Source: Nitrosopumilus sp. (GTDB lineage Archaea > Thermoproteota > Nitrososphaeria > Nitrososphaerales > Nitrosopumilaceae). From it: 64,000 nt of DNA. Positions 30,001 to 33,000 of this stretch are shown one piece after another. Each line of letters opens with the position of its first letter. The first letter of the stretch is position 1. The DNA lies in contig CBDBGZ010000009.1 in assembly GCA_965205425.1 (NCBI GenBank), positions 224,001 to 288,000 of the forward strand, in the 5' to 3' direction. Made by a program: the position numbers.

Positions 30001-33000
30001 CTCCATATGAAATAGGAAATAGTTTTCCGTCAATACTAACACTGCATGGTTTTTCTAAACTCTGATGAGTTGCATATGCGGTAGTAACAACAATCGGAAT
30101 GAATAATAGTAAAAATAACAAGAGAATAATTTTCACAGTTTCAAATGAAAATTAAGTGTAAAAAGGAAGAATTTAGAAAATAACCCATCAAGATATTGAA
30201 ACTTTGCCTGATTTTTCTATGGTAAATGTTACAGTATCTGGAATGTTAAGGAATTGATCTAAAGGTTTTGGTAATGTCATCTTGACATCTTTTCCAACTC
30301 GGTTAACACTTACTGTAAATTTTGTTGCACCTTCTTTCCATTTTGGCATACATAACAGTACAAATACTACTATTTATATTCTACCTAATACATAACGTTA
30401 ACATATTCTACCTAATAATTAATATTTGTGGGCCAGTAATTCGAAGGTCGAATCTCTAGTCGTCAACTAGAAGGCTCGGGTTCGATTCCCGACTGGTCCA
30501 CGTAATGTTTATTTAGAAATGATATGTAGAATAATTAGTTGACGACTAGATGTTAGTTCGCCTTTGAACTAGCCTTTTTTCTATTTTCTGAAAATTTTAG
30601 AGGGGTTTAACATCTAGGCATAATTTCAAAAAATCATTACACCATTGAGTTTTTGTGCGTAAGTAAATTTTGTGACAATATCGTATTGTGCCATCGGGCT
30701 GAAATGAGGTTTGATTGTTCCATTTACGAACAAAAGCTAAACCCGCCCTGAATTTTGGGAATTGTAAAAAATTCACATCATGCCTGATGTGAATACAATA
30801 ATTGAGGGGGTGAATATTTACGCATAAGTTTTTTCCAATTTTACATATTTGATAGGGGGTTTAGCTTTTAGGCACAAATTTGGTCATTAACAAATTTTAT
30901 TAATTCATCATGTAATAATAAATTAGAAACACGTCAGGAATGGGATTCGAACCCATGAAACCGATGTACTCAGCAAAGAGATTTTCAATCTCTCGGTATT
31001 ACCACTAACCGATCCTGACGAGTTTTCTTCTAAAAATTCCTATTTAAGAATTGGTTCTGATGTATTCAAGTGAATAAAATCTTAGAATATTCAACCTTTA
31101 AAAAATAGAAATTTGTATTATTATTACGGTTCCGTTGGTGTAATGCTGACTATGAGACTTGGAAACAAGAGCTCAGGGATCGACTTTATCTTTCAACATT
31201 TCAATATATGAAAAAATAACTAATATTGTAAAATTTCATAAAACCTCTATTTCTCATTATTCTCACAATGGTCAGCCGTGACTTTGTAATTTTGGATTAT
31301 TCACACCAAAGAAAGTACAGAAATCATACATGTGCAAAATGCGGAGACTTATTTAGTATAGGTGATGCTGTCCATACTCAAAGAACAAAACGTTCTAAGA
31401 GAATATGTCACAAACAATGTTGGGAGTCAATGTATACCCCAGATCATAAGTCTTTTCAATTTATTGTTCTTGCAAAATACTGATACATATTCAAATTAAA
31501 TTTGTGGGTTCTAAAATATTCCATAACTGTATGTCTCATCTCATGAATAGATTCATAAAATTCTGATTCAACATTAACATGTTTGCACTGTCTCCAAATC
31601 TCTTCAATCATACTCAAATGTGGAGAACCTCTTGGAAGATATGCCAGTTTGACATCTTTGTTTTTACGCAGATATTCTTTTACATCATTAGCTTTGTGTT
31701 GCGGTGCTCTATCGACGATAACAAATATTTTCCCGAATTTTTTACGAGCTGCCTCCAAATAATCCATAAATGCAATTGAGTTAAATTTTTCATACGATCT
31801 AAAAAAACTTTGATTATCATCAGTCATCATTCCATAAACCAAAAATCTTTGGTGCGATCCTCTCCAACGTACAATCATTCGTTGGTGTACATCTGTCCAG
31901 TATTTTTTACCAAGACGTACATCGTCTACAAATACAGACTCGTCTTGGATGAATACTGTAAAACCTTTCTTTTTTGCCTTTTCTATGCGTGAAATGATGC
32001 GGTTTTTCCACTTGCGGCACACATCCTTGGATGCTGCTCGCACATGTAGTTTTTGTGGAACCTTTGGTTTTAGATTCCATTTGTGCATCAAACGACGCAC
32101 ATGAGTGATATGATATGTAATGCGTGTTCTGTAAAATATGAATTGTATCAGTTTTTTTTGGAGTCATGCCGTCTGAAATTTTCTTAAATGTACGCTCTAT
32201 TTTTTGTAATGCTTTATGTGAGATTAATGGCGGACGGCCAGAACGAGGGGGGGTCCTCCAGACCCTCCAATCCGTATTTTTCAAATGAATCAAGCCAATT
32301 CCTTACAGAATTGCATGTACAAAACATTTGGTTGGCAGTTTCAGCAATTGTGGATTCGTTGATTTTAATCTTACACATTGCATGCAGTCTTTCCTTTTTC
32401 TTACCGTACTTTTCTTTTTTGTAGGCCTGGAGTAACTCGTCATTTGTGATGTCCATGAAATTATTTCTAACTACTGATCAAAAAGTATTGCTATTTGTTT
32501 TGAAAAATTGCAAAGAATTATGCTCCGAGGTATATGTCTGGATGAGTCAACAAACAAGATAGCTCCAAATATCAAAAAAGGCTGGTATCTAAAAGGAAAA
32601 AATACACAAACCAAAATCAACTATATAGTTTAGGCATATAAATTCTGAATAAACTGTCAAGTATTTTAACCCAAAAGATCTAGATCGTAGAATCAATTCA
32701 TGAAACCATGTCAAAGAGTACAAGACAATCCAAGGTTTCCTCTGGGAATCAATTCATGAAAGGTACAAGCATTAATTTTTTAAGAAAAACATGCAAGAAT
32801 GAAAAAAATGCAAAAGCAAAGATAAGACTAAAGGCTGCAATTTTACGCAAACAAGACATGAGATATTCTCAAATATGCATCAGTCTTGATATCATACCAT
32901 CAACTCTTAGTAATTGGTTAAACCAAATGAACCGAGAAGGAATATCTGCATCACGCCGCAAGAAATATTCTGGTTCTAGATGTTTCTTAGATAAAAAACA

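What a model noticed while it worked through the whole genome (the two positions that open the first line are those of the whole stretch)
30502..30600. Each Ala-acceptor odd tRNA gene is flanked by a short element that copies or complements its own anticodon arm and co-va [...]
Next to each of the seven odd tRNA genes lies an 11-17 nt stretch that matches that tRNA's own anticodon stem-loop, anticodon included: antisense 35-55 nt downstream on the same strand for the GUC tRNAs and one GAA tRNA, or same-sense 51 nt upstream (so antisense on the other strand) for the AAG/GAA tRNAs. Boldest reading: each tRNA comes with its own small antisense RNA that pairs with and masks its anticodon arm, a toxin-antitoxin-like module in which the toxin is a mistranslating tRNA and the antitoxin an anti-anticodon RNA. 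A tRNA-specific, anticodon-matched RNA partner encoded beside the tRNA gene has, to my knowledge, not been described in any domain.
Evidence so far: Own genome: C9:254536-254550 TAGTTGACGACTAGA is the reverse complement of the anticodon arm of tRNA C9:254430-254501; 11 nt at C9:711214-711224 for tRNA C9:711260-711332(-); 12 nt at C8:191613-191624 for C8:191679-191753(-); same-sense 16-17 nt at C4:165795-165810, C4:166004-166020 and C9:454176-454191 for tRNAs C4:165846, C4:166055, C9:454069; the C2:54916 tRNA has it with one mismatch. The tandem pair on C4 differs at 4 places of the anticodon loop (CTAAGAA vs GTGAAAC) and the two upstream copies differ in the same way. 0 of 5 canonical tRNAs and 0 of 3 class-II GAA tRNAs have such a match; a motif scan finds exactly 7 modules, none without a tRNA. 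Relatives: of 20 odd tRNAs from 11 other [...]
(Added by a program. Inside this text positions count along the whole contig: contig position 224,001 is position 1 of the stretch shown here. "Call 12" and the like, gene names such as g00115 and contig names such as C1 are that model's own, and its searches are not shown. The text may have been shortened before it was handed on; [...] marks where a part breaks off. The agent that wrote the report below was given it as the finding of a first reader that could run no searches.)

Follow-up and report, generated by a model that had tools for sequence, protein, structure and literature searches.

The report
Mistranslating tRNAs with matched antisense RNAs
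In some Nitrosopumilus archaea, odd transfer RNAs built to carry alanine but to read codons for other amino acids each sit beside a tiny gene whose RNA mirrors that tRNA's own front half, an undescribed pairing that looks like a poison and antidote made only of RNA.

Summary
The window's tRNA (30430-30501) has alanine acceptor identity (G3:U70, A73) but anticodon GUC. It is followed by a compact small-RNA gene: TATA-like box, a 16-nt stretch antisense to the tRNA's anticodon stem-loop (30535-50), a hairpin, and a T-run. All 7 odd tRNAs of the genome carry such a gene; none of the other 46 tRNAs does. An eighth copy is decayed.

In 151 Nitrosopumilus species genomes, 17 carry these genes (50 hits). 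None was found in 145 genomes of 63 other genera of the order. The small-RNA gene lies tandem, divergent or convergent to the tRNA.

Across 31 distinct anticodon arms the guide co-varies with its own tRNA (0 of 20000 permutations reach the observed fit). Mismatches are G:U (22) rather than A.C (3), which points to RNA-RNA pairing. The hairpin is itself a looser antisense copy of the D-arm, so the small RNA is an anti-(5' half of the tRNA).

The tRNAs keep a covarying cloverleaf and the alanine identity pairs. Small-RNA genes often outlive broken tRNAs; the reverse was seen once.

Best reading (0.5): a trans-acting anti-tRNA RNA that masks a mistranslating tRNA, like an RNA-only toxin-antitoxin pair. 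No data on expression, charging or toxicity exist.

The parts
30430..30501 (+). Odd tRNA: alanine acceptor identity (G1:C72, G2:C71, G3:U70, C4:G69, A73), anticodon GUC (Asp), anticodon loop UCGUCAA with C33, short 7-nt D-loop
   Evidence: ARAGORN; Rfam tRNA at 52.4 bits; model R1 at 86.9 bits; identity pairs read and counted over 34 homologues
30508..30516 (+). TATA-like box (TTTATTTAG) of the predicted small-RNA gene, 6 nt after the tRNA 3' end
   Evidence: Aligned with TTTAATTAG/TATATTAG boxes of the other modules. The same TTTAAT-type motif lies about 25-33 nt before canonical tRNA genes of this genome. Promoter function is inferred.
30535..30550 (+). Guide: 16 nt (TTAGTTGACGACTAGA) antisense to tRNA positions 27-42, covering the whole anticodon loop and the 5' strand of the stem. 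Predicted to lie at or within a few nt of the 5' end of the small RNA.
   Evidence: Distance from the TATA box compared with canonical tRNA promoters. The transcription start is inferred.
30552..30574 (+). Hairpin GTTAGTTC-GCCTTT-GAACTAGC(C). It is at the same time a looser antisense copy of the tRNA D-arm (tRNA positions 8-23).
   Evidence: RNAfold. Helix covariation over 48 copies: 76% paired, 0 of 500 shuffles reach the score. Complementarity to the D-arm: 13 Watson-Crick, 1 G:U, 1 A.C and 1 gap.
30575..30580 (+). T6 run, predicted archaeal terminator of the small RNA (about 45 nt in all)
   Evidence: Present after the hairpin in all 17 modules. Terminator function follows from general knowledge of archaeal oligo-T termination.
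30188..30349 (-). 53-aa ORF (MPKWK...), divergent from the tRNA. Possible accessory regulator, not part of the core module.
   Evidence: Homologues lie in the same place at 4 of 19 modules examined, 35-75% identical. No Pfam family. AlphaFold model of low confidence, pLDDT 65.

Best explanation
Each module holds two RNA genes. One is a tRNA that AlaRS should charge with alanine, because it carries G3:U70 and A73, the acceptor identity set of the host's own tRNA-Ala. Its anticodon, however, reads Asp, Phe, Leu or Ile codons, so on the ribosome it would place Ala at those codons.

The other gene is a small RNA of about 45 nt with its own promoter and oligo-T terminator. Its 5' end is complementary to the 7-nt anticodon loop and the 5' strand of the anticodon stem of its own tRNA. 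Its 3' hairpin is a looser antisense copy of the D-arm.

Proposed steps, all inferred:
1. The 5' end of the small RNA kisses the exposed anticodon loop.
2. It invades the stem and forms a duplex of about 15 bp. On nascent or unfolded tRNA this can extend to about 35 bp through the D-arm.
3. The tRNA can then no longer decode, and may be degraded.

While the small RNA is made, the tRNA is harmless. If the small RNA falls away, the stable tRNA mistranslates. The pair would thus act as an RNA-only toxin-antitoxin or addiction module, sitting in transposase-rich, variable genome regions.

Shown by sequence: gene anatomy, tRNA-specific co-variation, RNA-type mismatch pattern, conservation of the tRNA fold and Ala identity, and the decay asymmetry. 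Inferred: transcription, charging, toxicity, neutralisation and role.
For: Anatomy
- One architecture in the 17 modules first collected and the 48 copies aligned later.
- Three orientations: tandem, divergent and convergent.

Specificity of pairing
- 17 of 18 odd tRNAs found with the tRNA model have a cognate guide.
- Over 34 pairs the cognate duplex score averages 15.0, against 6.4 for non-cognate pairs (95th percentile 11.1).
- Over 31 unique arms the cognate sum is 465, against a permuted mean of 209 (sd 14); 0 of 20000 permutations reach it.
- The cognate partner is best or tied best for 27 of 31 tRNAs and 29 of 31 small RNAs.
- The C4 tandem pair differs at 4 loop positions and the two guides differ in the same way.

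RNA-level pairing
- At tRNA positions 27-40, 426 of 462 cells are Watson-Crick, 22 G:U, 3 A.C and 11 other.
- The loop (32-38) is Watson-Crick in 228 of 231 cells.
- In the D-arm part the counts are 393 Watson-Crick, 44 G:U-type transitions, 15 A.C-type transitions, 41 transversions and 17 gaps.
- RNAcofold gain is -5.6 to -25.3 kcal/mol for cognate pairs (window -12.6), against non-cognate means of -1.4 to -5.1.

The tRNAs are under selection
- In 34 copies, 95.5% of cells are paired and 16 of 21 pairs show compensatory changes.
- G1:C72 is kept in 33 of 34, G2:C71 in 33 of 34, G3:U70 in 32 of 34 and C4:G69 in 30 of 34, while pairs 5:68 and 6:67 vary freely.
- The 33 unique copies use only 7 anticodons: GAA 12, AAG 8, GUC 8, GAU 2, and GAG, AUC and CAG 1 each. 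None has U34 (two arms re-read by eye).

Toxicity is plausible
- In yeast, tRNA-Ala anticodon variants mistranslate and slow growth. GAA(Phe) has a moderate effect and CAG(Leu) a severe one; U34 variants have the least effect (10.1101/2022.11.23.517754, abstract and section 12).

Decay asymmetry
- Of 33 further small-RNA genes, 17 sit beside an intact cognate tRNA and 16 do not. At least 9 of the 16 abut a truncated tRNA.
- The eighth copy in this genome is of the same kind.
- Only 1 of 18 odd tRNAs lacks a small RNA, and a transposon end abuts its 5' end.

Context and distribution
- Repeated 1-1.3-kb elements surround the own-genome copies.
- IS110, IS630-type, IS66 and IS1595 transposases, DUF5131 and ParB_N lie around copies in G169.
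- Distribution is patchy: 17 of 151 species genomes.
Against: - No transcript evidence: no RNA run holds the region. Promoters, strands and ends are inferred.
- Charging with Ala is inferred from identity elements only. GAA, GUC and GAU anticodons could also attract PheRS, AspRS or IleRS, which would dilute mistranslation.
- 7 of 33 tRNAs have C33 instead of the near-universal U33, and some loops can close a 32:38 pair. The tRNAs may therefore decode poorly.
- One module (L068) has only 9 contiguous pairs.
- One intact tRNA has no small RNA (L010).
- The excess of orphan small RNAs is partly an ascertainment effect, since that search used the small-RNA model.
- In a folded tRNA the D-arm is buried, so the long duplex may never form.
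- No trigger, nuclease or chaperone is identified.
- Related modules are not independent, so the permutation and mismatch counts overstate significance.
Confidence: 0.5

Rival explanations
1. The pairing mechanism is the same, but the role is different. The small RNA is a rheostat for conditional, beneficial mistranslation (stress diversification of the proteome), not an addiction or defence module.
For: Natural mistranslating tRNAs with a proposed adaptive role exist in Streptomyces (PMC10404621, abstract). All the pairing evidence fits this reading equally well.
Against: - Distribution is patchy and multi-copy, in transposase-rich regions.
- Decay is frequent, with the tRNA lost and the small RNA kept.
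- Several different anticodons occur in one genome.
These features fit selfish or defence elements better than a conserved physiological switch.
Confidence: 0.2
2. The small RNA is a guide that directs an enzyme to the tRNA's anticodon arm, for modification, editing, cleavage or processing. It would be needed to make the tRNA functional or to destroy it catalytically, rather than masking it.
For: The layout of a 5' guide followed by a conserved hairpin handle resembles guide RNAs. Archaeal C/D-box sRNAs are known to target tRNA anticodon loops (recalled, not from a call).
Against: - 0 of 17 small RNAs have a C box, 4 of 17 have CUGA, and none has both.
- No Rfam family matches.
- No protein gene is shared by the modules. 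The conserved unit is only the 170-180 bp of tRNA plus small RNA.
- The hairpin sequence is explained by antisense homology to the D-arm, not by a protein-binding motif.
Confidence: 0.1
3. The tRNA does not act in translation. It would be an alanine donor for another pathway, a primer or a decoy, and the small RNA merely regulates it.
For: C33 in 7 of 33 copies and unusual 32:38 combinations suggest relaxed decoding constraints. The acceptor identity is what is most strictly kept.
Against: Anticodons are restricted to 7 of 64, switch repeatedly within that set, and never have U34. This argues that codon reading matters. The anticodon loop is the most strictly matched part of the guide. No linked enzyme gene was found.
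Confidence: 0.08
4. A cis-acting precursor structure. In the tandem arrangement the tRNA reads through into the antisense segment, which folds back on the tRNA as a processing or quality-control hairpin, or as a Y-RNA-like molecule.
For: No clear T-run lies between the tRNA and the element in the tandem type. There is a weak YrlA-like match, 20.7 bits at E 0.89.
Against: Of 33 unique tRNA-small RNA pairs, 18 are divergent and 2 convergent, i.e. on the opposite strand, yet they have the same architecture and co-variation. A TATA-like box at a fixed distance is kept in the tandem type too. The YrlA score is far below the gathering score of 69.
Confidence: 0.05
5. A DNA-level repeat without RNA function. 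A partial duplicate of the tRNA's 5' half would be kept alike by gene conversion or serve as a recombination site.
For: The small-RNA gene is homologous, in antisense, to tRNA positions about 5-42, so it surely arose by partial duplication of a tRNA gene.
Against: - Gene conversion predicts identity and equal numbers of the two transition classes. Observed are 22 G:U against 3 A.C in the guide and 44 against 15 in the D-arm part.
- The anticodon-arm part is far better matched (92% Watson-Crick) than the D-arm part.
- The repeat is inverted in some modules and direct in others, yet always carries a TATA box and T-run in the right orientation.
Confidence: 0.04

Closest known systems
CreTA, RNA toxin-RNA antitoxin pairs of archaea and bacteria (PMC8501985, abstract seen in the listing)
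   Same: Both partners are small RNAs. The system is addiction-like. The toxic effect goes through tRNA and translation, since CreT sequesters a tRNA.
   Different: In CreTA the toxin sequesters a normal tRNA, and the antitoxin is a crRNA-like guide that needs Cascade to repress transcription. Here the tRNA itself would be the toxin, and the antitoxin would pair with it directly. No CRISPR repeat or cas gene was seen in the modules.
Type I toxin-antitoxin systems such as hok/sok (recalled, not from a call)
   Same: A small antisense RNA, encoded beside its target, neutralises the neighbour's product by base pairing. The system is multi-copy, lies in mobile regions, and decays with orphan antitoxins left behind.
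   Different: The target there is an mRNA for a small toxic peptide. Here there is no conserved ORF: 4 of 7 modules have none of 20 aa or more. The target is a tRNA.
tRNA-ProX/ProRSx mistranslation modules of Streptomyces and Kitasatospora (PMC10404621, abstract)
   Same: Natural tRNAs that combine the identity of one amino acid with the anticodon of another. They are accessory and toxic when expressed.
   Different: They are bacterial, have proline identity, and are partnered with a dedicated synthetase isoform. Here there is a single AlaRS gene, and the partner is an antisense RNA.
Engineered and human tRNA-Ala anticodon variants (10.1101/2022.11.23.517754, abstract and section 12; PMC12084884, listing only)
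   Same: tRNAs with G3:U70 and non-Ala anticodons. These are shown to place Ala at other codons and to slow growth.
   Different: They are laboratory constructs or rare human alleles, without a matched regulator RNA.
Archaeal C/D-box sRNAs that guide 2'-O-methylation in tRNA anticodon loops (recalled, not from a call)
   Same: A short archaeal RNA with 10-12 nt antisense to a tRNA anticodon arm.
   Different: They require C and D boxes, which are absent here (0 of 17 with a C box). They are not tRNA-gene-linked one to one.
Loop-loop antisense control (ColE1 RNA I/RNA II, recalled) and T-box specifier-anticodon pairing (PMC2879506, abstract in the listing)
   Same: Recognition starts from an exposed loop. 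In the T box, an RNA reads a tRNA anticodon.
   Different: The T box pairs with 3 nt and senses charging. Here 15 nt or more are paired and the tRNA would be unfolded.

Membership tests
tRNA (Rfam RF00005) | Cloverleaf scoring above the gathering score of 29 bits | tested here: met
   52.4 bits. In 34 homologues, 95.5% of cells are paired and 16 of 21 pairs have compensatory changes.
tRNA-Ala (by identity) | G3:U70 pair and A73 discriminator | tested here: met
   G3:U70 in 32 of 34 copies, the other 2 being A:U. A73 was read, with 1 exception of G73 (L067).
tRNA-Ala (by identity) | Alanine anticodon (NGC) | tested here: not met
   The anticodons are GAA, AAG, GUC, GAU, GAG, AUC and CAG.
tRNA-Ala (by identity) | Charged by AlaRS | not testable with these tools
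   Needs an aminoacylation assay. One AlaRS gene is present.
Type I toxin-antitoxin | Toxin is a small, usually hydrophobic, protein whose mRNA is the antisense target | tested here: not met
   No conserved ORF: 4 of 7 modules have none of 20 aa or more, and the 3 found are unrelated and overlap the tRNA.
Type I toxin-antitoxin | Adjacent small antisense RNA gene with its own promoter and terminator | tested here: inconclusive
   The sequence architecture fits. There is no transcript evidence.
RNA-RNA toxin-antitoxin (CreTA-like) | Antitoxin flanked by degenerate CRISPR repeats and dependent on a Cas effector | not tested
   No repeat pair is visible in the module sequences. cas genes were not searched for.
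RNA-RNA toxin-antitoxin (any) | Toxin RNA arrests growth and antitoxin RNA relieves it | not testable with these tools
   Needs expression tests.
C/D-box sRNA | C box RUGAUGA and D box CUGA flanking the guide (consensus recalled) | tested here: not met
   0 of 17 have a C box, 4 of 17 have CUGA, and 0 have both.
YrlA / Y RNA-like (Rfam RF02553) | Score at or above the gathering score of 69 bits | tested here: not met
   20.7 bits, E 0.89.
tRNA-ProX-type mistranslation module | Dedicated synthetase paralogue next to the tRNA | tested here: not met
   One AlaRS (PF01411) match in the genome, at C9:347845-349338, far from the modules.

The most novel reading that the evidence does not exclude
This is an RNA-only toxin-antitoxin or abortive-infection module of a new type. 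The toxin is an alanine-charged tRNA that rewrites Asp, Phe, Leu or Ile codons proteome-wide. The antitoxin is a labile anti-tRNA RNA of about 45 nt, derived from an inverted copy of the tRNA's own 5' half, that unfolds the anticodon arm. Specificity is set by the anticodon arm, so many orthogonal pairs coexist in one genome. Orphan antitoxins act as immunity against incoming copies.
Probability: 0.33. Interest if true: 0.92.

Novelty: categorically new. Interest (0 to 1): 0.86.

Why it matters
If the reading holds, three things would be new:
- natural mistranslating tRNAs in archaea;
- small RNAs whose dedicated target is a tRNA;
- a toxin-antitoxin logic in which a tRNA is the poison.

It would show that cells or their mobile elements can weaponise the genetic code itself and hold it in check by base pairing alone. 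It would also offer naturally orthogonal tRNA/anti-tRNA switches for controlling decoding.

Even if the role differs, the strict one-to-one co-variation over 31 distinct anticodon arms in abundant marine ammonia oxidisers calls for an explanation. It is directly testable with Northern blots, tRNA sequencing and heterologous expression.

Tried and rejected
**Expression data**
- No RNA holder is listed for the region.
- The four runs laid are contigs and say nothing about transcripts.

**Peptide reading of the hairpin**
- Read in frame, the hairpin gives VSSPLN-stop with apparently synonymous changes. I rejected this: L009 breaks the frame (my reading), and the changes are explained by co-variation with the D-loop.

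**Consensus folding**
- RNAalifold on the first alignment gave no consensus structure. I supplied the hairpin by hand and then counted pairs on an alignment fitted to the model. That alignment leans towards the structure.

**Known RNA families**
- C/D-box guide: rejected.
- YrlA-like: rejected.

**Collection scans**
- Viral contigs, two patterns: 4 hits, all chance matches without a tRNA.
- Metagenome contigs, one pattern: 1 of 17 hits is a real module, and the other 16 are chance hairpins.

**Trans targets and cognates**
- A genome-wide search for 12-mer matches to tRNA arms was swamped by chance hits in this AT-rich genome: 28 of 53 tRNAs had some match (one search timed out).
- The anti-GUC small RNAs in G153 have no matching tRNA in that genome at up to 1 mismatch in 14 nt.

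**Linked proteins**
- Pfam gave nothing for the small neighbouring ORFs.
- The AlphaFold model of the 53-aa ORF is too poor to search with (pLDDT 65).
- There is no dedicated AlaRS paralogue.

**Earlier findings and literature**
- No earlier findings of this scan bear on the region.
- Literature searches found no natural tRNA/anti-tRNA module. This rests on those searches and my own knowledge only.
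Full report
**What is at the site**

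Window 30430-30501 (+) is a 72-nt tRNA gene (ARAGORN; Rfam tRNA at 52.4 bits). The acceptor stem GGGCCAG/CUGGUCC carries G3:U70 and the discriminator is A73. This is the acceptor set of the genome's own tRNA-Ala genes. The anticodon, however, is GUC (Asp).

Thirty-four nucleotides downstream, TAGTTGACGACTAGA (30536-30550) is the exact reverse complement of the anticodon arm. In the whole window this 15-mer, at up to 2 mismatches, occurs only at these two places. The expectation is 0.05, and 0 of 100 shuffles give 2 matches.

**The organism**

The genome has 9 contigs, 2.2 Mb and 33% G+C, with archaeal-type tRNAs. Close relatives of a window protein are titled Nitrosopumilus.

**The genome-wide pattern**

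Of 53 tRNA genes, seven combine G3:U70 and A73 with non-Ala anticodons: GUC three times, GAA twice and AAG twice. The longest exact match between the 17-nt arm and the +-150-nt flanks is 15, 15, 15, 15, 12, 11 and 8 nt for these seven. It is at most 9 nt for the other 46.

The 8-nt case is a 15-nt duplex interrupted by a single G:U. A metagenome copy of the same module has A at that place, which gives a perfect match.

A profile built from the flanking elements finds the seven modules (E<1e-9) and one further weak hit (E 0.032). This is a decayed eighth module. Its CAG tRNA has lost the 5' acceptor strand, while the flanking element looks whole.

**The element is a small gene**

When oriented on the antisense strand, all modules align as one architecture:
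- a TATA-like box (TTTAATTAG, TATATTAG and the like);
- about 20 nt of unconserved spacer;
- the variable guide of 13-18 nt;
- a hairpin;
- a run of 5-7 T.

The same TTTAAT-type box lies 25-33 nt before the canonical tRNA genes of this genome. By that ruler the small RNA would start within a few nucleotides of the first guide base and be about 45 nt long. Each predicted RNA folds into a 3' hairpin followed by U's. Over 48 copies the helix is 76% paired, and no shuffle (0 of 500) reaches its covariation score, on an alignment fitted to the model.

The gene lies in three arrangements:
- downstream on the same strand as the tRNA (type A, as in the window);
- upstream on the opposite strand (type B);
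- in relatives, downstream on the opposite strand (type C).

Among 33 unique pairs there are 13 of type A, 18 of type B and 2 of type C. A structure that acts only in cis within one transcript cannot explain types B and C.

**Relatives**

A covariance model of the seven tRNAs was run over 61 related genomes. I examined 49 loci and found 11 more odd tRNAs, all in four genomes of the same genus. A further 349 lower matches were not listed, so this is not exhaustive. Ten of the 11 have a matched element.

A model of the small-RNA gene was run over 151 genomes of the genus. It hit 17 genomes with 50 matches. Sixteen of the 17 are 1.7 Mb or larger. Over 151 genomes drawn from the order it hit only this genome and one other of the same genus. 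That is 0 of 145 genomes in 63 other genera. The model is family-specific, so distant analogues could be missed.

**Co-variation**

For 34 tRNA-small RNA pairs with 31 distinct anticodon arms:
- the cognate duplex score averages 15.0 (minimum 9.0), against 6.4 for non-cognate pairs (95th percentile 11.1);
- with one entry per arm, the cognate sum is 465, against a permuted mean of 209 (sd 14), and 0 of 20000 permutations reach it;
- the cognate partner is the best or tied best for 27 of 31 tRNAs and 29 of 31 small RNAs.

The tandem pair on contig 4 differs at four loop positions, and its two guides differ in the same way. Related modules are not independent, so these figures overstate significance. 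Still, the number of distinct arm-guide combinations is large.

**RNA-level pairing**

Position by position over 33 unique pairs:
- tRNA positions 27-40 are Watson-Crick in 426 of 462 cells, G:U in 22, A.C in 3 and otherwise mismatched in 11;
- the seven loop positions are Watson-Crick in 228 of 231 cells.

Transitions in duplex DNA should give G:U-type and A.C-type mismatches equally often. The 22:3 excess is what selection on pairing between the tRNA and an RNA from the predicted strand would give. It is not what a DNA repeat kept alike by gene conversion would give.

**The small RNA is antisense to the whole 5' half**

RNAcofold unexpectedly paired the hairpin of the small RNA with the D-arm and 5' acceptor strand of the tRNA. 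The energy gain is -5.6 to -25.3 kcal/mol for cognate pairs (window -12.6), against non-cognate means of -1.4 to -5.1.

Alignment shows why. The region after the guide is a degenerate reverse complement of tRNA positions about 5-25. Over 32 unique modules the counts are 393 Watson-Crick, 44 G:U-type transitions, 15 A.C-type transitions, 41 transversions and 17 gaps.

The loop of the hairpin follows the D-loop: CCACT goes with AGUGG, and GCCUUU with GAAGG. The hairpin exists because the antisense of a hairpin is a hairpin. So the gene arose as an inverted partial copy of the tRNA. The anticodon-arm part is kept nearly perfect, and the D-arm part doubles as terminator hairpin and looser pairing surface.

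**The tRNAs are under selection as alanine acceptors**

In 34 aligned odd tRNAs:
- 95.5% of stem cells are paired, against 74% in shuffles and 50% or less when slid;
- 16 of 21 pairs show compensatory double changes;
- G1:C72 is kept in 33 of 34, G2:C71 in 33 of 34, G3:U70 in 32 of 34 and C4:G69 in 30 of 34;
- pairs 5:68 and 6:67 vary freely.

Anticodons are limited to seven. Among 33 unique copies they are GAA 12, AAG 8, GUC 8, GAU 2, and GAG, AUC and CAG 1 each (two arms re-read by eye). U never occurs at position 34.

In yeast, tRNA-Ala variants with other anticodons mistranslate and slow growth. GAA(Phe) has a moderate effect and CAG(Leu) a severe one; U34 variants have the least effect (10.1101/2022.11.23.517754, abstract and section 12).

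There are caveats:
- seven of 33 have C33 instead of U33, and some loops could close a 32:38 pair;
- GAA, GUC and GAU anticodons may also attract the cognate synthetases;
- only one AlaRS gene is present.

**Decay pattern and context**

Thirty-three further small-RNA genes were examined in 30 loci. Seventeen sit beside an intact cognate tRNA and 16 do not. At least nine of the 16 abut a tRNA stump at the normal distance, either the first 12-30 nt or the last 14-35 nt. Two lie beside a non-cognate tRNA and have no cognate anywhere in that genome.

The reverse case, an intact odd tRNA without a small RNA, was seen once in 18. There a transposon end abuts the tRNA's 5' end. Part of this asymmetry is ascertainment, since the second search used the small-RNA model.

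The conserved unit is only the 170-180 bp of tRNA plus small RNA. Repeated 1-1.3-kb elements surround all own-genome copies. In another genome the neighbours are IS110, IS630-type, IS66 and IS1595 transposases, DUF5131, a Dam-like methylase and ParB_N. No protein gene is common to the modules. A 53-aa ORF (window 30188-30349) recurs upstream of 4 of 19 modules, but has no Pfam family and only a poor model.

**Interpretation**

The best-supported mechanism is a trans-acting antisense RNA. Its 5' end pairs with the exposed anticodon loop and then opens the stem, so that the alanine-accepting tRNA cannot decode.

The role I favour is an RNA-only toxin-antitoxin or addiction module, at confidence about 0.5 for mechanism and role together. 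The reasons are the patchy, multi-copy, mobilome-linked distribution, the many mutually orthogonal pairs, and the survival of small RNAs beside broken tRNAs.

The rivals are given with their odds in the Rival explanations section:
- a switch for conditional beneficial mistranslation;
- a guide for a modifying or cleaving enzyme;
- a non-translational use of the tRNA;
- a cis precursor structure;
- a DNA-level repeat.

**Comparison with what is known**

The system works like antisense-controlled toxins: type I systems (recalled), and the RNA-RNA CreTA pairs, whose toxin sequesters a tRNA (PMC8501985, abstract in the listing). It fails their defining features, since there is no toxin ORF and no CRISPR-like antitoxin was seen.

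It shares the idea of a dual-identity tRNA with the Streptomyces tRNA-ProX family (PMC10404621, abstract), but has no dedicated synthetase. It is not a C/D-box guide and matches no Rfam family.

My searches found no description of a tRNA gene paired with an anticodon-matched antisense RNA gene. This rests on those searches and my own knowledge.

**What remains open**

Nothing shows that either RNA is made, that the tRNA is charged with alanine, that it is harmful, or that the small RNA relieves it. No RNA run was available.

Noticed in passing
window 30931-31020 (-); also G000 C8:120792-120883 (-) and C9:901280-901368 (+): There is a second family of odd tRNAs. They are class-II (long variable arm) tRNAs with anticodon GAA (Phe), acceptor GUCAGGN and discriminator G, with a body resembling tRNA-Leu. 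Such a tRNA might be charged by a synthetase that ignores the anticodon. Class-II-like genes with CCU (C9:356124) and ACC (C9:1042184) anticodons also exist. None has an adjacent antisense element, and their flanks share little.
   Followed up: partly
window 30188-30349 (-): A 53-aa ORF (MPKWK...) lies divergent from the odd tRNA. Homologues occupy the same position at 4 of 19 modules examined (window, L003, L036, L066). It has no Pfam family, and the AlphaFold model has pLDDT 65 and is mostly strands. It could be a small DNA-binding regulator of the tRNA promoter.
   Followed up: partly
L037, upstream of the tRNA at 501-575 (-): A different 46-aa ORF (MGQMTFIVSDELEKK...) lies divergent from a convergent-type module. 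By eye it looks like a ribbon-helix-helix protein. This was not tested.
   Followed up: no
window 30581-30682 (+): About 100 nt just after the small RNA's T-run is 95% identical to the stretch after another GUC module (C9:711083-711183) and occurs nowhere else in the genome. It contains TAGAGGGGTTTAACATCTAGGCA. A similar motif recurs at window 30853-30875.
   Followed up: partly
window 28866-29729, 31456-32100, 32708-33768: Transposase-like ORFs flank the module (not run against Pfam). Repeats of 1-1.3 kb at 89-100% identity surround all seven modules.
   Followed up: partly
L075 1363-1506 (-) (G153): An odd GAA tRNA is interrupted by a 72-nt insertion that duplicates its own positions 8-42. 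ARAGORN reads this as an intron. The same locus and L085 carry two small-RNA genes around one tRNA, one cognate and one anti-GUC without any cognate tRNA in the genome.
   Followed up: partly
L010 (G036 C2:457938) and L076 (G036 C2:263115): The same transposon end (TAGTGTGTTGCATAATTCAACCCGGCC) abuts the 5' end of one odd tRNA and cuts another after position 13. The insertion sequence may prefer these tRNA genes as targets.
   Followed up: no
window 30468: Contigs of two coded runs (X2, X5) match from 30468 onward but carry a different sequence before it (table 7). This may be another copy, or a junction inside the tRNA gene in related strains.
   Followed up: no
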